In this document: positions 9,821 through 64,000 of the stretch, one piece after another
Position numbering within the stretch: position 1 is the stretch's first letter
Layout of the letters: each line of letters begins with the position of its first letter
Virus record (IMG/VR): IMGVR_UViG_3300042887_005898
Origin: an uncultured virus (IMG/VR IMGVR_UViG_3300042887_005898)
Lineage: Duplodnaviria > Heunggongvirae > Uroviricota > Caudoviricetes
Length of the DNA: 64,000 bases
Direction: 5' to 3' (one strand)
Notes under the pieces: model-generated
What the model saw: only the letters and a program-made list of their open reading frames with translations
Told to the model about the DNA's origin: nothing
The model's database searches: none
Position numbers and translations under genes: made by a program

Positions 9821-9928
9821 ACGTTATATATAATTTTTTTCAATAAAAATTTGACAAGTTTAAAACTTTATTATATATTTGTATAAAATAAAAAAAAAAG
9901 AGAAAAAAACTTTTTAATATATAAAGAA

Positions 9929-10027
9929 ATGAGAGCAATTCGTAAACATAGTCATTTTAGTAAATCGTTTTCTTGGTTTAATCACCAAGGTTCGGTACTA
10001 AGAGAGTATTGCTCAAATTTGATGTAA
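9929..10027 (+). CDS. Leader peptide of tRNA array 1 (MRAIRKHSHFSKSFSWFNHQGSVLREYCSNLM)
   Basis: 32-aa ORF between promoter motifs and terminator; codons 5-17 all R/K/H/S/F/W. Confidence 0.8.
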   Translation: MRAIRKHSHFSKSFSWFNHQGSVLREYCSNLM

Positions 10028-10093
10028 CATAGAAATACATATAAAGAAATACTACAAGTCCGAACCGAGAAATCAGTTCGGACTTTTTGTTTT
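9989..10093 (+). promoter_or_regulatory. Attenuator 1: antiterminator/terminator switch
   Basis: Terminator AAGTCCGAAC(10056-65)/GTTCGGACTT(10076-85) plus U tract; GGTTCGGtACT(9989-99) can pair with AGTCCGAACC(10057-66). Confidence 0.85.
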
Positions 10094-10097
10094 ATAT

Positions 10098-10170
10098 GGA
10101 CTCGTAGCTTAATTGGGAAAGCACTCCGCTTTTAACGGAGGGAGAGTGGGATCGTAACCCGCCGGGTCCA
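10098..10170 (+). tRNA. tRNA-Lys(UUU)
   Basis: Anticodon arm CTCCG-CT-TTT-AA-CGGAG; cloverleaf. Confidence 0.92.
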
Positions 10171-10179
10171 CTAAGAAAT

Positions 10180-10253
10180 GGTGGCATTGTTGTTAGCGGC
10201 AAGCATTCAACTCTGTGAAAGTTGAGGGATGGGTTCAAATCCCATATGTCACC
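10180..10253 (+). tRNA. tRNA-His(GUG)
   Basis: CAACT-CT-GTG-AA-AGTTG; G-1 and C73 present. Confidence 0.92.
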
Positions 10254-10277
10254 CAAAATTCTGTTAATGACAGAAAT

Positions 10278-10352
10278 GACTTCGTAGCTCAGTTGGTTTA
10301 GAGCACCGCACTTTTAATGCGGGAGTCGTGGGTTCAAGTCCCACCGGGGTCA
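10278..10352 (+). tRNA. tRNA-Lys(UUU), second isodecoder
   Basis: CCGCA-CT-TTT-AA-TGCGG. Confidence 0.95.
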
Positions 10353-10363
10353 CTACTCTCTAT

Positions 10364-10435
10364 GGTCTCGTAACATAGAGGTTTATGTGCTGGTCTGAAA
10401 AACCAGAAATGCCAGATCGTTACTGGCCGAGACCA
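10364..10435 (+). tRNA. tRNA-Phe(GAA)
   Basis: CTGGT-CT-GAA-AA-ACCAG; acceptor GGTCTCG/CGAGACC. Confidence 0.9.
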
Positions 10436-10442
10436 CAAACAC

Positions 10443-10515
10443 GCGTCATTGGTGTAATGGCTTAGCATCTTCGGTTCCAACCCGAAGGGTCAGGGTTCGA
10501 GTCCTTGGTGACGTG
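10443..10515 (+). tRNA. tRNA-Trp(CCA)
   Basis: TTCGG-TT-CCA-AC-CCGAA; G73. Confidence 0.9.
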
Positions 10516-10527
10516 CAAAGAAAAAAT

Positions 10528-10659
10528 GGGGATGTAGCTCAGCGGTAGAGATTAATCTCTCTTTTAAAATTTTACCTCTATAAAAAGAGTGTTGATTAAA
10601 AGAGTTACTTCGTATATTTTGAACATATAAGGTCGTGGGTTCGAATCCCACCATCCCCA
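10528..10659 (+). ncRNA. tRNA-like RNA with ~55-nt structured insertion in the D region (anticodon possibly UGA)
   Basis: Perfect acceptor GGGGATG/CATCCCC, T arm GTGGG-TTCGAAT-CCCAC, arm TATAT-TT-TGA-AC-ATATA. Confidence 0.7.
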
Positions 10660-10666
10660 CTAATTT

Positions 10667-10749
10667 TCCTCTCATATCGGCCGTGTCTTCGAAACATGAG
10701 TACCGTAACGGATAATGAAAAATGGGGGTTCGAATCCCTCTGAGAGGAC
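10667..10749 (+). ncRNA. Atypical tRNA-Arg(UCG)-like RNA, D-arm reduced, long variable region
   Basis: Acceptor TCCTCTCA/TGAGAGGA; CGTGT-CT-TCG-AA-ACATG; T arm GGGGG-TTCGAAT-CCCTC. Confidence 0.65.
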
Positions 10750-10758
10750 TAAATATTT

Positions 10759-10845
10759 GGAGAGTGTCCGGTTGGTCGAGGATGGCGTCTTGAAAACGTT
10801 CTGGGTGTAAAAGCTTCTGGGGTTCGAATCCCTAATTCTCCGCCA
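10759..10845 (+). tRNA. tRNA-Ser(UGA)
   Basis: GGCGT-CT-TGA-AA-ACGTT, long variable arm, G73-CCA. Confidence 0.9.
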
Positions 10846-10851
10846 AAAAAT

Positions 10852-10936
10852 GGAAGATTGTCAGAGTGGTCTATTGTATCTCTTTGCTAAAGAGATGGAC
10901 GTAAAAGTTCCACAGGTTCGAATCCTGTATCTTCCG
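10852..10936 (+). tRNA. tRNA-Ser(GCU)
   Basis: TCTCT-TT-GCT-AA-AGAGA, long variable arm, G73. Confidence 0.93.
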
Positions 10937-10943
10937 CTAATAA

Positions 10944-11663
10944 TTAAGGTTTAATATTCAATTTAATTGACTCTGTGTCTCCTATTTTTGAATAAACCGC
11001 ACTTACAAATTCAGAACCTTTATTCATTAGGTCAATACACATTTTAGCACTACTACTATCACCTTTATCTAAATCCTCTTTTGCAGTACTTATAATCTTA
11101 TTTGCAGTAACTATTGCTGAATCTGCTATATTCACAGCATTCTGACCTAAGTTCTCGATCTCAATATTACCATCCTTCAAATCAACAAGATGAGCGATTG
11201 CTTTATTGATCTCCATTAAATCTAAATCAGTTTTACCTTTAATCATATTAAGCCAACCAATAGCAACATTAATTTGTTCATCTGGTATAGGTTGTCCTTT
11301 TGATTGTGCATAAGCAGATGATGTAGAAACCATAAGTAAAATTACGATAATAAGAGTAATGATTATCACCTTAAAAAGAACTGGATGTTTTTCTTTCCAT
11401 TTTGAAACAGTTGAGATTACCCACTCAAATACTTTTTTAAATTTATTGATTATTGCAAATCCAATTTTAGAAGCCTGAACTATAAATGAATAAAGCACAC
11501 TTACAATTTTATCTTTTATATAATTTGTAAAATCAATAATAGATTCATTGAAAACCTCTAAATTTAAATAATCAATGTATTCTGATTCAGTTATTTTTCC
11601 TTCTATGAACTGAATGGTCTTCAAATCAGTACTAGTAAAATCGTTAAATTTAAGTATTTTCAT
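10944..11663 (-). CDS. Hypothetical protein with central TM helix, possible virion protein
   Basis: MKILKFNDF N-terminus; hydrophobic VIIITLIIVILLMV. Confidence 0.7.
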   Translation of the reverse strand: MKILKFNDFTSTDLKTIQFIEGKITESEYIDYLNLEVFNESIIDFTNYIKDKIVSVLYSFIVQASKIGFAIINKFKKVFEWVISTVSKWKEKHPVLFKVIIITLIIVILLMVSTSSAYAQSKGQPIPDEQINVAIGWLNMIKGKTDLDLMEINKAIAHLVDLKDGNIEIENLGQNAVNIADSAIVTANKIISTAKEDLDKGDSSSAKMCIDLMNKGSEFVSAVYSKIGDTESIKLNIKP

Positions 11664-13641: not shown

Positions 13642-14565
<924 letters not shown>

Positions 14566-14811: not shown

Positions 14812-14883
14812 TGCGGGATAGAGCAGAGGTAGCTCGCAAGGCTCATAACCTTGAGGTCACAGGTTCGAATCCTGTTCCCGCTA
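14812..14883 (+). tRNA. tRNA-Met(CAU), initiator-like
   Basis: CAAGG-CT-CAT-AA-CCTTG; 1:72 mismatch and A11:U24. Confidence 0.9.
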
Positions 14884-14899
14884 CTAAATCTAAAATTTA

Positions 14900-60328: not shown

Positions 60329-60403
60329 ATGAAAGTTGTTAATAACATATCAATCATAGGGAACGGCACTATAGCGGGTGGCCTTCTTTTGCTGATTGGT
60401 TAA
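60329..60403 (+). CDS. Leader peptide of tRNA array 2 (MKVVNNISIIGNGTIAGGLLLLIG)
   Basis: 24-aa ORF; ATA x3, GGG, GGC x2, GGT, GCG before the antiterminator strand. Confidence 0.8.
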   Translation: MKVVNNISIIGNGTIAGGLLLLIG

Positions 60404-60462
60404 GTATTGACTCTTTCATTCAAGATACTTTAAACCCAATCAGTGATGATTGGGTTTTTTTT
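60391..60462 (+). promoter_or_regulatory. Attenuator 2: antiterminator/terminator switch
   Basis: Terminator AAACCCAATCA(60432-42)-GTGA-TGATTGGGTTT plus U tract; CTGATTGG(60392-99) pairs with CCAATCAG(60436-43). Confidence 0.85.
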
Positions 60463-60471
60463 ATTTTATAT

Positions 60472-60545
60472 TGGTGAGTAGCTTAAACGGTAGAAGCACC
60501 TGTCTTATACACAGGAGAAAGTGGGATCGTTACCCACCTCACCAA
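60472..60545 (+). tRNA. tRNA-Ile(UAU)
   Basis: CCTGT-CT-TAT-AC-ACAGG; acceptor TGGTGAG/CTCACCA. Confidence 0.9.
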
Positions 60546-60552
60546 CTAAACT

Positions 60553-60625
60553 GCAGAAGTGGTGTTAATGGTTAGCATGTGAGACTTCCACTCTCAAGGT
60601 GCCAGTTCGAATCTGGTCTTCTGCT
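60553..60625 (+). tRNA. tRNA-Gly(UCC)
   Basis: TGAGA-CT-TCC-AC-TCTCA; U73. Confidence 0.93.
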
Positions 60626-60629
60626 CAAT

Positions 60630-60702
60630 GCGAGAGTAGCTCAATAGGTAGAGTACCACCTTGCCAAGGTGGATGTTGCCGGATCGTACCCGGTCTCTCG
60701 CT
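60630..60702 (+). tRNA. tRNA-Gly(GCC)
   Basis: CCACC-TT-GCC-AA-GGTGG; U73. Confidence 0.93.
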
Positions 60703-60715
60703 CTTTATAAATAAT

Positions 60716-60789
60716 GGGTCATTGGTGAAGCTGGCTATCACACAAGATTTGCAATCTTGAGTCACGAGTTCGAAGCTCGTATGTATCCA
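60716..60789 (+). tRNA. tRNA-Ala(UGC)
   Basis: CAAGA-TT-TGC-AA-TCTTG; G3:U70; one-base bulge in acceptor stem. Confidence 0.85.
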
Positions 60790-61610: not shown

Positions 61611-62407
61611 CTTAGTTCGTAGAGTTCGTTAATATTTAGTAGTCTATGCTCACAATCAACAATTTGTTCTATATTACTTCTATGAAAATGTCCATAAAAA
61701 TGTTTTTGTATCTTATTGTTTTCATTCAAGATATTCCACATTTTTGTCATTACGGTTCTTTCTTCGATAAGTTCTTCTTTTAGATTTTCATCGTCAGCAC
61801 AAAATGTTTCTACTAGATTACCAAATCCCAATTTATTAGTTGGTAAACAAAAGTCAGGAGCAGTATGTGTAACAAGTATATCGATGCCTCTAAATTCTTT
61901 AATCAAATCTTCATTATAGGTAACTTTTTCGTCATACCAATAAGTTCTTCTCCTACTCCCGTATCTTGCATATTTCATATTTTCAAGTATTCTTGGTTTT
62001 CTGTCAATACTAACAGCACCACCAACAAACAAGAAGTTTTTATTTTCTAAATTAAGAACTGTATAATCTGGTAATAATTCCAAATTACTATATTTATGTT
62101 GTCCTTTGAAAAAGTCTGGATTATCGTGATTTCCTCTTATTGCGTATAAGGTAATATTCTTCTTACTTAAAAAGTCGTTGAAACCTAGTAAAAATCTTGT
62201 ATCGTTATCTTCATTGGTAAATCCAATACCAAAATCACCTACTTGAATAATGATACAGTTATCGATTTTAGTTTTTTCGATATGTTTCATCAAGTAGTTA
62301 AAATTCCCATGTATGTCACCAAGTAATAAAATCATAATACAAAGATAAGGAAATTTTTTGGATATTTCAAATATCCTCTTTATGTGTGTGTGAAATGACA
62401 TTCTCAT
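61607..62407 (-). CDS. Metallophosphoesterase
   Basis: LGDIHG, VGDFG, RGNHD, VTHTAP, YGHFH; true start probably MILLLGD. Confidence 0.9.
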   Translation of the reverse strand: MRMSFHTHIKRIFEISKKFPYLCIMILLLGDIHGNFNYLMKHIEKTKIDNCIIIQVGDFGIGFTNEDNDTRFLLGFNDFLSKKNITLYAIRGNHDNPDFFKGQHKYSNLELLPDYTVLNLENKNFLFVGGAVSIDRKPRILENMKYARYGSRRRTYWYDEKVTYNEDLIKEFRGIDILVTHTAPDFCLPTNKLGFGNLVETFCADDENLKEELIEERTVMTKMWNILNENNKIQKHFYGHFHRSNIEQIVDCEHRLLNINELYELR

Positions 62408-62523
62408 TCCACCACTTTGTAAACTTTGAATTTGGAAAAATTTCTCTTAACTTTTCACCGACGATAAGACAAGTAAGTAGTAAAAGACCAGAAACTAAAA
62501 TTATTGTTAGAATATCCATAATA

Positions 62524-62829
62524 CTAATTATTAATTAATGTTAATATACCAGAAACTGAAAGAATTATTCCAGTTGATATCATTATATCTGATGTAGATT
62601 TAGAAATTTTATTAGTTTGATTTAATAAAATAGTAGTTCCTGTTAAAGCTAATCCAGTTGATAGAAAAATCACACTACTTTTTTTTGACACATCATTACT
62701 CTTTTTAAATTGTTCTTGTGCCGATTTAATAGATTGTGGATTACTATTATAGTAATAGTTACTATTAGTCTTCTGTGAAATAACAGAAGTACTTAAAAAA
62801 AGTAGTAATATTGTAAATATTTTACTCAT
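62524..62829 (-). CDS. Exported/membrane hypothetical protein
   Basis: Signal peptide plus two hydrophobic segments. Confidence 0.6.
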   Translation of the reverse strand: MSKIFTILLLFLSTSVISQKTNSNYYYNSNPQSIKSAQEQFKKSNDVSKKSSVIFLSTGLALTGTTILLNQTNKISKSTSDIMISTGIILSVSGILTLINN

Positions 62830-63030
62830 TTAACAGTTTCAACTTTATCATAAGCTGCACATTTAGGATGTTTTGAAACACAAGAAAATAGAGCTATTGA
62901 TAAGATTAGAAATATAATTACATTTTTCATATTGTTATATATTAAAAATAACTAAAAAAGTTTTGCTCAAAAAATGAATTAAACTTAATTTACTTTATCA
63001 ATAGAATAATTAAATAAAAAAAATTGTGAT

Positions 63031-63723
63031 ATGAAAATTGGATGGTTTGTTGGTACAAAAACTTTCACTACTTCAGGAGAGTTAAAGAGTAAGCCTCAGC
63101 TTGATCTCTTAATTATGGAACCCGAAAAAGTTGGAGTCACTGATGAACACGGTAGTTATAAATATTGTCCAGCTTTTGCTATTTACACTAATCAAACTTT
63201 TTTACTAAGATCACCTTTTGATTTAGAATTAAATTTCTATAATAATGAAGTAAATGTTTTATACTCTTCGATATCACCTAATGTTATCAAAGACCATCTT
63301 ACAATTGATATGGAGAAAAATCCAATTGTTCAATTAGAACTTCATATTGGTTTTGTTGCTGATGAAACTTGTTTTATTGAACTGACAAGTGATCACTTTA
63401 GTACAAATCGTCCAAATAATCATGTAAGAGTTGTTCCTGGTACTTATGATATCTCAAGTTGGCAGAGACTTCTTAACTACTCGATTGAATGGACAGATAC
63501 TTCAAAACCAATTTCAATTAAAAGAGGAGATCCACTTTTATATGTGAGGTTCAGAACCAAAAATCCGAGTGAGAAGTTTGAACTAAAAAGAATTGAAATG
63601 ACAGATGATTTATTAAAATCAGTTGCTAGATCACAACTTTCTAAATTTTATGTTTCAGGTAAAACTTGGACACTAATGAAACTTAATAAATTAATGAGAC
63701 GAAAAATAAAATTTGTGAAATAA
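63031..63723 (+). CDS. Conserved-looking phage hypothetical protein
   Basis: KYCPAF...LRSPFD...PGTYDISSWQR...IKRGDPL.YV.F. Confidence 0.7.
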   Translation: MKIGWFVGTKTFTTSGELKSKPQLDLLIMEPEKVGVTDEHGSYKYCPAFAIYTNQTFLLRSPFDLELNFYNNEVNVLYSSISPNVIKDHLTIDMEKNPIVQLELHIGFVADETCFIELTSDHFSTNRPNNHVRVVPGTYDISSWQRLLNYSIEWTDTSKPISIKRGDPLLYVRFRTKNPSEKFELKRIEMTDDLLKSVARSQLSKFYVSGKTWTLMKLNKLMRRKIKFVK

Positions 63724-63812
63724 AAATTAACATTTAAGAAAATATAACTTATATTTGTAAAATAAATCGAAAAATACAAAACAAGGTAAGAATTTTTAAT
63801 ATATAATAAACA

Positions 63813-63920
63813 ATGAAAACAATGAATCTAAATATGACAAATTTGAATCTCACGGTGGTGAATACATTATGTATTAGAACCATGAGGTCGGGTATTGCCA
63901 AATTTAGAATTGTCTCATAA
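63813..63920 (+). CDS. Leader peptide 3 (MKTMNLNMTNLNLTVVNTLCIRTMRSGIAKFRIVS)
   Basis: 35-aa ORF after TAATATATAA, rich in T/N/M/L/V, same layout as leaders 1 and 2. Confidence 0.75.
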   Translation: MKTMNLNMTNLNLTVVNTLCIRTMRSGIAKFRIVS

Positions 63921-63985
63921 CATAGAGAATTAAGTCTAAAGATACACAAACCCGACCTTGAAAAAGAGTCGGGTTTTTTATTTTT
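63884..63985 (+). promoter_or_regulatory. Attenuator 3: antiterminator/terminator switch
   Basis: Terminator AAACCCGAC(63948-56)/GTCGGGTTT(63968-76) plus U tract; AGGTCGGGT(63885-93) pairs with ACCCGACCT(63950-58). Confidence 0.85.
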
Positions 63986-64000
63986 GGATAAAAAGATGGT

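What the first reader, a model, noticed from the sequence alone, without database searches (positions are those of the whole stretch)
63750..64000. Third attenuator at the window edge gives a blind prediction
Seen in sequence: host-type TATATTTG and TAATATATAA motifs, then leader 63813-63920. Before the antiterminator strand it has Thr x5 (ACA, ACG, ACC), Asn x5 (AAT), Met x4, Leu x4 (CTA, TTG, CTC, TTA), Val x2 (GTG), plus single Lys, Cys, Ile and Arg. A perfect 9-bp antiterminator (63885-93 with 63950-58) competes with a terminator. Inference: the sequence beyond 64000 should be a tRNA array dominated by Thr, Asn, Met, several Leu isoacceptors and Val. The three leaders partition the amino acids largely without overlap.
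Basis: partly seen in the sequence, partly recalled or inferred. Interest (0 to 1): 0.88.

Follow-up and report, generated by a model that had tools for sequence, protein, structure and literature searches.

The report
Leader-peptide attenuator gating phage tRNAs
A tiny translated "test" gene and a switchable transcription stop sit in front of a block of phage tRNA genes and are spelled in the very codons those tRNAs read, so the phage probably makes these tRNAs only when ribosomes run short of them.

Summary
Window 63813-63920 is a 35-codon ORF. Its region 63885-93 is perfectly complementary to the 5' arm (63950-58) of a terminator hairpin followed by a T-run.

The window's own genome is not held. 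A 99.15% identical metagenome contig (L001) continues with eight tRNAs: Arg-tct, Asn, Cys, Val-tac, Ile-gat, Leu-taa, Thr-tgt and Met. The first starts at window 63998.

Of the 23 codons ahead of the antiterminator strand, 19 are read by these eight tRNAs, against 6.7 expected. All eight anticodons are represented.

The two other in-window leaders match their arrays too. Two 630-640 kb megaphages (LR745206.1, LR756502.1) each carry seven such leaders, including Glu/Tyr, Pro/Asp, Gln-only and Arg/Ser ones. In each genome the true leader-to-array assignment is the single best of 5040 permutations.

The same design precedes IleRS (Ile-rich leader) and a ValRS-like gene (Val-rich leader).

My reading is trp-type ribosome-mediated attenuation used as a tRNA-supply feedback. 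Seven literature searches found no account of it for tRNA genes. Earlier notes of this scan report the same idea on other phage DNA. There is no experimental evidence.

The parts
63727..63757 (+). Promoter-like block: TTAACA-17-TATATT overlapping TATATTTG (TAnnTTTG)
   Evidence: scores it 10 of 12 as a sigma-70-like site. TAnnTTTG lies 30-63 nt upstream of all three window leader ATGs. TATATTTGTA is invariant in the three-way alignment A1. That TAnnTTTG is the Bacteroidota -7 box is recalled, not tested.
63793..63806 (+). Conserved TTTTTAATATATAA box ending 6 nt before the leader ATG
   Evidence: A T(T)AATATATA box lies 14-20 nt upstream of the ATG in 8 of 17 leaders and 31-35 nt upstream in 3 more, and its columns are invariant in A1. 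Its role is not settled: it could be a second promoter or a translation-initiation region.
63813..63920 (+). Leader ORF, 35 codons plus stop: MKTMNLNMTNLNLTVVNTLCIRTMRSGIAKFRIVS
   Evidence: Of codons 2-24, 19 of 23 are read by the downstream array (expected 6.7, binomial P 1.5e-7; 0 of 12315 same-length windows in phage genes reach this).
63841..63852 (+). Region 1: regulatory codons that pair with region 2 when no ribosome is present
   Evidence: The MFE has helices 63841-46 with 63888-93 and 63848-52 with 63883-87.
63883..63898 (+). Region 2: 5' strand of the antiterminator (core AGGTCGGGT, 63885-93)
   Evidence: Duplex with region 3 is -19.3 to -19.9 kcal/mol; 0 of 300 shuffles reach it.
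63948..63959 (+). Region 3: terminator 5' arm, shared with the antiterminator
63964..63976 (+). Region 4: terminator 3' arm
   Evidence: Hairpin of -15.8 kcal/mol. The 3:4 duplex is -16.7 kcal/mol.
63974..63985 (+). T-run TTTTTTATTTTT
63998..64000 (+). First three bases of tRNA-Arg(tct). The rest of the 8-tRNA array lies beyond the window, at window-equivalent 63998-64729.
   Evidence: ARAGORN on L001 and on the window plus the L001 tail.
9929..10085 (+). Sister attenuator 1: leader MRAIRKHSHFSKSFSWFNHQGSVLREYCSNLM (9929-10027) and terminator 10056-10085, heading the Lys/His/Lys/Phe/Trp/Ser/Ser array at 10098-10937
   Evidence: Own-array codons are 12 of 19 against 4.2 expected.
60329..60457 (+). 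Sister attenuator 2: leader MKVVNNISIIGNGTIAGGLLLLIG (60329-60403) and terminator 60432-60457, heading Ile-tat/Gly-tcc/Gly-gcc/Ala-tgc at 60472-60788
   Evidence: Own-array codons are 8 of 20 against 1.9 expected.

Best explanation
This is a trp-type, ribosome-mediated transcription attenuator whose regulated genes are a phage tRNA array, and whose regulatory codons are the ones those tRNAs decode.

Proposed sequence of events:
1. Transcription starts at the promoter-like block near 63750.
2. A ribosome translates the 35-codon leader while RNA polymerase moves on.
3. If the ribosome slows on Thr, Asn, Met, Leu, Val, Cys, Ile or Arg codons (codons 2-21), it covers region 1. Region 2 is then free to pair with region 3 before region 4 is made. 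The terminator cannot form, and the eight tRNAs are transcribed.
4. If these codons are read quickly, the ribosome runs through region 2. Regions 1:2 and 3:4 form, and transcription stops at the T-run, 13 to 24 nt before the first tRNA.

Because the products are the tRNAs being tested, this is a negative feedback on tRNA supply with OR logic over eight tRNA species. It is one member of a set covering nearly all tRNA arrays of this phage group. In LR745206.1 the same design also gates an IleRS and a ValRS-like gene.

Shown here: the anatomy, the codon-to-anticodon match, the alternative pairings, and conservation with concerted change of the helices. Inferred: translation of the leader, termination and readthrough, and the nature of the signal.
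For: 1. Blind test. The array predicted from the leader is present in the 99.15% identical contig L001. 19 of 23 pre-antiterminator codons are decodable by it, against 6.7 expected, and 8 of 8 anticodons are represented.

2. Leaders 1 and 2 of the window match their own arrays: 12 of 19 and 8 of 20, against 4.2 and 1.9 expected. Off-diagonal counts are 0-5.

3. There is no room for a separate promoter. The terminator stem ends 13, 15 and 22 nt before the first tRNA.

4. The four-region layout is present. The MFE gives 1:2 plus 3:4. Energies for 2:3 against 3:4 are -15.2/-15.8, -13.9/-15.4 and -19.3/-16.7 kcal/mol. Masking a ribosome footprint at codons 2-21 lets 2:3 form before region 4 exists.

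5. LR745206.1 and LR756502.1 each hold seven leader-terminator-array units: His/Phe/Trp/Lys, Arg/Ser, Glu/Tyr, Ile-ATA/Gly, the Asn/Arg/Leu/Val/Ile/Thr/Met type, Pro/Asp, and Gln-only (MTTTQQIQQQQINQTD, MTTSFQQQQQQQINRTD). The true assignment is 1 of 5040 permutations in each genome.

6. 2:3 complementarity: median -11.3 kcal/mol in the 17 leaders against -6.0 in 431 other terminator-like hairpins (Mann-Whitney P 2.6e-10).

7. Concerted change. Five homologues read CTGAGGG / CCCTCAG / CTGAGGG. The window reads GGTCGGG / CCCGACC / GTCGGG. One T-A to C-G exchange lies outside the terminator stem, so it supports the antiterminator alone.

8. Codon-level matching. 140 of 161 amino-acid-matched degenerate codons are decodable by the own array, against 124.3 expected from synonymous usage (z 3.9). 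Ile codons are 13 own against 2 other-unit; Arg codons 5 against 0.

9. The same leader design precedes IleRS (MNFNTIIIIRYSIPWSIPIG; TIGR00392 at 674 bits, cut-off 621) and a ValRS-like gene (MKTINLNNLVVVNVSV).

10. In IMG/VR, 4 of 4 Gln-leader pattern hits have a terminator plus tRNA-Gln x2-3. 3 of 15 type-5 pattern hits are true homologues with arrays; the other 12 are chance hits.
Against: - There is no expression, ribosome-profiling or 3'-end data of any kind.
- The DNA beyond 64000 is from a near-identical contig, not the window's own record.
- The simple terminator scan does not call this hairpin.
- Several leaders have weak 2:3 pairing that is not distinguishable from shuffles: 43, 49, 32, 46 and 32 of 300 shuffles reach it for five of the megaphage leaders.
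- At equilibrium with region 4 present, the terminator wins in leaders 1 and 2 for every stall position, so the model needs kinetic trapping.
- In leaders 1 and 3 the stop codon lies 25-30 nt past region 2. A terminating ribosome therefore does not cover region 2 as it does in trp.
- Mismatches exist. CTA, CTC, ACC and AAA in this leader have no cognate tRNA in the array. The Arg/Ser leaders use AGT x3-4 while no Ser-gct was called in their units. 9 of 73 unit anticodons have no codon in their leader.
- All leaders share an N-terminal M-K/T-T-I/M-N stretch, which inflates matches to the large Asn/Thr/Ile array. The own unit is the best column in only 3 of 7 and 5 of 7 rows.
- Homologous leaders in the three genomes are not independent samples.
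- Some tRNAs have no leader: 9 of 61 and 11 of 48 in the megaphages, and Met 14812 in the window.
Confidence: 0.75

Rival explanations
1. It is a leader-peptide attenuator, but it senses amino-acid starvation (uncharged tRNA), as classical attenuators do, not tRNA abundance. The tRNA arrays would simply belong to a starvation regulon.
For: The anatomy is the same. A ribosome stalls equally for lack of charging. In LR745206.1 the same design gates IleRS and a ValRS-like gene with cognate leaders, which is the classical logic.
Against: Making more tRNA does not relieve amino-acid shortage. Matching goes down to the anticodon. The Ile-tat array's leader uses ATA x3 and the Ile-gat array's leader uses ATT. 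Arg-acg leaders use CGT and CGC while Arg-tct leaders use AGA. Pooled, 140 of 161 against 124.3 expected.
Confidence: 0.12
2. The hairpin is an ordinary, constitutive terminator or insulator, and the short ORF is fortuitous. The tRNAs would be made by basal readthrough or from an unrecognised promoter.
For: AT-rich DNA (29% G+C) is full of short ORFs. The promoter motifs are common: TATATTTGTA occurs 13 times in 73.7 kb. One search does not call a terminator. Some 2:3 pairings are weak.
Against: The codon match is 19 of 23, and 0 of 12315 gene windows reach it. The true assignment is the best of 5040 permutations, twice. ORF, frame and helices are conserved in six homologues with concerted helix change. 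Only 13-22 nt separate the terminator from the first tRNA.
Confidence: 0.06
3. The short ORFs encode functional small proteins, conserved for their peptide sequence, and each simply has its own terminator.
For: The peptides are recognisably homologous across phages, for example the invariant ...VVN..TLCIR... stretch.
Against: Seven paralogous peptides each differ in exactly the amino acids of their own array. The regulatory part varies by shuffling and indels (TNLNLT, TMNLTLN, NLNTLT) while composition is kept. The C-terminal halves track the RNA helix. No Pfam search was run on peptides this short.
Confidence: 0.04
4. The leader RNA senses tRNA directly, T-box-like, without translation.
For: The elements regulated are tRNA-related genes, with terminator and antiterminator alternatives.
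Against: No T-box or any other Rfam family comes near threshold in 63700-64000 or 9850-10960. Up to eight different tRNAs would have to be read by about 170 nt of RNA. The matching is in one reading frame that has a start and a stop codon.
Confidence: 0.02

Closest known systems
Multivalent leader-peptide attenuators of enterobacterial amino-acid operons (thr: Thr/Ile; ilvGMEDA: Ile/Leu/Val; also trp, his, leu, pheA). Recalled textbook knowledge, not read here.
   Same: A short leader ORF enriched in regulatory codons. Four RNA regions with mutually exclusive 1:2, 2:3 and 3:4 pairings. An intrinsic terminator directly before the regulated genes. Several amino acids sensed by one leader.
   Different: The regulated genes are tRNAs, which are the sensed molecules themselves, not biosynthetic enzymes. 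Up to eight tRNA species are tested per leader. The element is phage-encoded. No Shine-Dalgarno sequence is visible. In two of the three window leaders the stop codon lies well past region 2. No Rfam leader family matches.
pheST attenuator of E. coli (pheM leader). Recalled, not read here.
   Same: A gene of the translation apparatus under leader-peptide attenuation by its cognate amino-acid codons. The parallel here is the IleRS and ValRS-like leaders of LR745206.1.
   Different: pheST controls a synthetase, not tRNA genes. I recalled that E. coli tRNA-Phe genes might have such a leader. The pheV upstream region of MG1655 shows only a promoter and no leader ORF or attenuator.
T-box riboswitches
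   Same: They read out tRNA status and choose between a terminator and an antiterminator upstream of translation-related genes.
   Different: T-boxes bind uncharged tRNA directly through a specifier loop and a conserved T-box sequence, with no ORF. No such match exists here.
Earlier notes of this scan on other phage genomes (e1-5836933, e1-5870437, e1-5886956, e1-5926054, e1-6024449, e1-6040601; also e1-2978539)
   Same: The same reading: codon-matched leader-peptide attenuators ahead of tRNA arrays.
   Different: They concern other DNA. A sequence look-up found no look-alike of this locus among them. I did not check them.

Membership tests
Leader-peptide (ribosome-mediated) transcription attenuator | Short ORF with start and stop codons in the 5' leader | tested here: met
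   ATG 63813 to TAA 63920, 35 codons. The ORF is kept in six homologues.
Leader-peptide (ribosome-mediated) transcription attenuator | Regulatory codons enriched in the part of the ORF ahead of the antiterminator strand | tested here: met
   19 of 23 against 6.7 expected, and 4 of 11 in the rest of the ORF. The permutation test gives 1 of 5040 in each megaphage.
Leader-peptide (ribosome-mediated) transcription attenuator | Intrinsic terminator between the leader and the regulated genes | tested here: met
   Hairpin of -15.8 kcal/mol plus TTTTTTATTTTT, 22 nt before tRNA-Arg. One search's stricter rule does not call it.
Leader-peptide (ribosome-mediated) transcription attenuator | Antiterminator (2:3) mutually exclusive with the terminator (3:4), of comparable stability | tested here: met
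   -19.3 against -16.7 kcal/mol. 0 of 300 shuffles reach it. All three strands change in concert, and there is one antiterminator-only compensatory pair.
Leader-peptide (ribosome-mediated) transcription attenuator | 1:2 pairing that sequesters region 2 when the ribosome is not stalled | tested here: met
   MFE helices 63841-52 with 63883-93. This is prediction only.
Leader-peptide (ribosome-mediated) transcription attenuator | Leader is translated, and readthrough rises on ribosome stalling | not testable with these tools
   No expression data are available.
Leader-peptide (ribosome-mediated) transcription attenuator | Regulated genes are amino-acid biosynthesis or synthetase genes (the classical targets) | tested here: not met
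   The downstream genes are eight tRNAs. This is the point of novelty.
T-box riboswitch | Match to the T-box covariance model (specifier loop and T-box sequence) | tested here: not met
   No hit at gathering score in the window, nor at E up to 1 in 63700-64000 and 9850-10960.
Rfam amino-acid leader families (His, Leu, Thr, Trp leaders) | Match to any of these covariance models | tested here: not met
   Searches give no such match.

The most novel reading that the evidence does not exclude
Megaphages of this group run nearly their whole imported translation kit as one regulon of ribosome-read attenuators. That kit covers most tRNA arrays, sorted by isotype, plus IleRS and a ValRS-like gene. Each attenuator is a feedback sensor of the supply of the tRNAs it controls, down to the isoacceptor. 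This would let the phage switch on replacement tRNAs on demand: when its AT-rich codon demand outruns the host pool, or when host tRNAs are degraded during infection or by tRNA-cutting defence nucleases. It would be the first known case of tRNA genes controlled by translation of their own codons.
Probability: 0.55. Interest if true: 0.88.

Novelty: new variant of a known kind. Interest (0 to 1): 0.8.

Why it matters
Why large phages carry dozens of tRNAs, and how they time their expression, is an open question. A codon-matched attenuator gives a direct and testable answer: the arrays are made when decoding of exactly those codons is slow.

It would extend leader-peptide attenuation from metabolic operons to the tRNA genes themselves, giving product feedback at isoacceptor resolution. 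It would supply compact natural sensors of tRNA availability. It would also allow tRNA content to be predicted from leader sequence, as was done blind here.

Tried and rejected
- Own genome: none is held.
- Megablast of 62000-64000 against phages: no match.
- Exact 38-mer in viral contigs: no match.
- The 230-aa upstream protein in viral contigs: no relatives. By tblastn against phages: only about 28% identical cyanophage hypothetical proteins.
- The search of earlier findings by place and by sequence: nothing.
- L002, whose upstream protein is 79% identical, has no leader or tRNAs after it. It gave no comparison.
- My recalled precedent, that E. coli tRNA-Phe genes have a Phe leader, was not borne out. 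The region upstream of pheV holds a promoter only. pheU was not looked at.
- The marine megaphage OU342829.1, named in PMC9723777, is not in the collection, so it was not examined.
- A fixed-spacing promoter pattern found nothing, because the spacing varies.
- Column-wise covariation counting on A1 and A2 was abandoned. MAFFT puts the window's helix out of register with the others. Helices were compared sequence by sequence instead. The automatic call for LR745206.1 was wrong, because an earlier T-run was picked; one search's values are used for it.
- The first join of the window with the L001 tail was wrong because the anchor was not found. It was redone.
- Literature searches were judged from listings and abstracts; none concerns leader-peptide control of tRNA genes. 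I read passages of PMC3082878, which were irrelevant. I read passages of PMC9723777, which place LR745206 and LR756502 as freshwater and subsurface megaphages and mention tRNA once, with nothing on regulation.
- Subscription-only papers and supplements were not seen.

Full report
**What is there**

The last 250 bases of the window hold, in order:
- a promoter-like block: TTAACA-17-TATATT overlapping TATATTTG at 63750-57;
- a conserved TTTTTAATATATAA box (63793-63806);
- a 35-codon ORF (63813-63920, MKTMNLNMTNLNLTVVNTLCIRTMRSGIAKFRIVS);
- a hairpin, 63948-59 with 63964-76, at -15.8 kcal/mol;
- the run TTTTTTATTTTT.

AGGTCGGGT (63885-93), inside the ORF, is the exact complement of the hairpin's 5' arm ACCCGACCT (63950-58) and is unique in the window.

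**The blind prediction**

No genome is held for this window. Phage and IMG/VR searches for the locus found nothing.

A metagenome scan with the upstream 230-aa protein returned L001. It is 99.15% identical to the window's last 5425 bases, with a single difference in the last 300 (63929).

In L001 the terminator is followed by eight tRNAs: Arg-tct, Asn-gtt, Cys-gca, Val-tac, Ile-gat, Leu-taa, Thr-tgt and Met-cat. The first begins at window 63998, so the window's last three bases are its start.

Of the 23 codons between the start codon and region 2, 19 are decodable by these eight tRNAs under standard wobble. That compares with 6.7 expected from the phage's codon usage (binomial P 1.5e-7), and 0 of 12315 equal-length windows in long ORFs reach it. 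All eight anticodons have a codon. Unserved codons are AAA, CTA, CTC and ACC.

**The sister elements in the window**

Leader 1 (9929-10027) precedes Lys, His, Lys, Phe, Trp, Ser-tga and Ser-gct. Leader 2 (60329-60403) precedes Ile-tat, Gly-tcc, Gly-gcc and Ala-tgc.

Own-array codons are 12 of 19 (4.2 expected) and 8 of 20 (1.9 expected). Cross-matches are 0-5. The terminators end 13 and 15 nt before the first tRNA.

**Structure**

For all three leaders the unconstrained MFE is a long hairpin pairing the regulatory codons (region 1) with region 2, plus the terminator 3:4.

| Leader | 2:3 duplex (kcal/mol) | 3:4 duplex (kcal/mol) |
|---|---|---|
| 1 | -15.2 | -15.8 |
| 2 | -13.9 | -15.4 |
| 3 | -19.3 | -16.7 |

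With a 29-nt ribosome footprint masked and region 4 not yet made, 2:3 forms for A-site codons 2-17, 2-17 and 2-21 in leaders 1, 2 and 3. With region 4 present at equilibrium, only leader 3 keeps a sizeable antiterminator fraction (0.42-0.86 at codons 9-18). The switch must therefore be kinetic, as in classical attenuators.

In leaders 1 and 3 the stop codon lies 25-30 nt beyond region 2. This departs from trp. I infer that re-pairing of 1:2 behind the ribosome, together with the faster local 3:4 fold, gives termination.

**Relatives**

A blastn search found the leader-1 region itself conserved in two unannotated megaphages. It is 71.5% identical over 228 nt in LR745206.1 (634,780 bp) and 74.8% over 160 nt in LR756502.1 (642,428 bp). 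PMC9723777 (passages read) places them as a subsurface and a freshwater megaphage.

I fetched both records and ran ARAGORN, which called 61 and 48 tRNAs. Each genome has seven leader-terminator-array units.

| Unit type | Leader in LR745206.1 / LR756502.1 |
|---|---|
| His/Phe/Trp/Lys | MTTNSTHKNFSKSHKWF... / MRTINKHKHFSKLNKWF... |
| Arg-acg/Ser-tga | ...SKSSSRSSS... / ...SSRSRSSKS... |
| Glu/Tyr | ...SYESYYEEG... / ...ETIGYTGYEGAYSE... |
| Ile-tat/Gly | homologues of window leader 2 |
| Asn/Arg/Leu/Val/Ile/Thr/Met | homologues of this finding |
| Pro/Asp | ...APVNPQPQDQDP... / ...VDQDQPD... |
| Gln-only | MTTTQQIQQQQINQTD / MTTSFQQQQQQQINRTD |

The units hold 52 of 61 and 37 of 48 called tRNAs. 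In the window plus the L001 tail they hold 20 of 21.

The true leader-to-unit assignment gives the highest summed match of all 5040 permutations in each megaphage. This holds both for the pre-region-2 codons and for the whole ORF. In the window it is 1 of 6.

The own unit is the best single column in only 3 of 7 and 5 of 7 rows. The reason is that the large Asn/Thr/Ile/Leu array also reads the M-K/T-T-I/M-N start that all leaders share.

**Is the antiterminator selected?**

Genome-wide I found 224, 196 and 37 terminator-like hairpins. The best duplex between the terminator's 5' arm and the upstream 132 nt has a median of -11.3 kcal/mol in the 17 tRNA leaders, against -6.0 in 431 others (P 2.6e-10). 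11 of 17 leaders reach -11 or lower, against 5% of the others.

Five megaphage leaders are weak, with 32-49 of 300 shuffles reaching the observed value.

Pattern scans of IMG/VR added three homologues of this leader (L086, L091, L094). The other 12 of the 15 hits were chance matches. The scans also added four Gln leaders (4 of 4 hits), each with a terminator and a matching array.

In five homologues the three strands read CTGAGGG / CCCTCAG / CTGAGGG. In the window they read GGTCGGG / CCCGACC / GTCGGG. All three strands therefore changed together.

LR756502.1 has GGGTTTTG pairing with CAAAACCC, where L086, L091 and L094 have GGGCTTCG pairing with CGAAACCC. This is a T-A to C-G exchange outside the terminator stem.

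**What is sensed?**

Matching reaches the anticodon level. Pooled over the 17 leaders, 140 of 161 degenerate codons whose amino acid the own array serves are decodable by that array's anticodons, against 124.3 expected from synonymous usage (z 3.9; homologues are not independent).
- Ile-tat arrays have ATA-rich leaders, and Ile-gat arrays have ATT (13 own-unit against 2 other-unit codons).
- Arg-acg leaders use CGT and CGC, and Arg-tct leaders use AGA (5 against 0).
- Against this: the Arg/Ser leaders use AGT x3-4 with no Ser-gct called in the unit.

This favours tRNA supply over amino-acid supply as the signal, but does not settle it.

In LR745206.1 the same design also precedes IleRS (leader MNFNTIIIIRYSIPWSIPIG; TIGR00392 at 674 bits, above its cut-off of 621) and a truncated ValRS-like gene (leader MKTINLNNLVVVNVSV; best model valS, below cut-off).

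**Comparison and novelty**

In anatomy it is a leader-peptide attenuator. It is not a T-box or any Rfam leader family. The target, tRNA genes whose products are what the leader tests, is the new element.

Seven full-text searches returned nothing on such control, judged by title and abstract. My recalled E. coli tRNA-Phe precedent failed on inspection of pheV.

The scan's own earlier notes describe the same idea on other phage genomes. They are unchecked by me and are not evidence.

I rate it a new variant of a known kind. Confidence that it works as described is 0.75. All function is inferred from sequence.

Noticed in passing
window 14157-14562 (+), with tRNA-Met at 14812-14884: A full-length GOLLD RNA (RF02032, 277 bits against a gathering score of 150) lies 250 nt upstream of a lone tRNA-Met. 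That tRNA has no leader or terminator in front of it.
   Followed up: no
Rfam gives only sub-threshold tmRNA and tRNA hits. A second stretch has a tRNA-like acceptor and T-arm that no tool called. The anticodons are uncertain.
   Followed up: partly
L034 1899-4254 (LR745206.1 381899-384254) and L016 14378-15852, minus strand: Ile-rich and Val-rich leader ORFs, each with a terminator, precede IleRS and a truncated ValRS-like gene. This is the same attenuator design applied to synthetases. tblastn found no copy of either gene in LR756502.1.
   Followed up: partly
L032 5085-6060 (LR745206.1 345085-346060); LR756502.1 377658 onward: A conserved short leader (MRALHTYKITIDLG / MKTLHTYKNVIDWM) with strong 2:3 pairing and a terminator precedes a 65-67-aa basic protein. 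In LR745206.1 a HisRS-like fragment follows. The leader's codons do not obviously name a target.
   Followed up: no
L002 700-1333: A relative whose upstream protein is 79% identical has neither leader nor tRNAs after it; a different gene follows. The promoter-leader-array block is therefore a variable module.
   Followed up: partly
LR745206.1 407638-407751; LR756502.1 422937-423045, 388948, 389656: Some leaders, including the two Gln leaders, lie inside arrays. The LR745206.1 Gln leader starts only 34 nt after a tRNA. The LR745206.1 Gln leader and two LR756502.1 leaders (388948, 389656) have no TAnnTTTG box within 120 nt upstream; the LR756502.1 Gln leader has one at -75. They would act as internal gates within a longer tRNA transcript.
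   Followed up: partly
window 63855-63860 and the same columns of alignment A2: GTGGTG is invariant in all six homologues of this leader, although GTG is only 6-8% of Val codons in these phages. Possibly a deliberately slow wobble-read codon, or an RNA constraint.
   Followed up: no
LR745206.1 364830-364870: The TTTTTAATATATA box that precedes leader ATGs also lies about 25 nt upstream of a tRNA-Met that has no leader. It occurs 9 times in the window plus the L001 tail. It may be a second promoter class rather than a translation signal.
   Followed up: no
window 899-58549: The window encodes many cell-like auxiliary genes: S-adenosylhomocysteine hydrolase, thymidylate synthase, GroEL-type chaperonin, DnaJ, adenylosuccinate synthetase, an IMPDH/GMP-reductase-family enzyme and the ribonucleotide reductase small chain. 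This fits a very large phage at 29% G+C.
   Followed up: no
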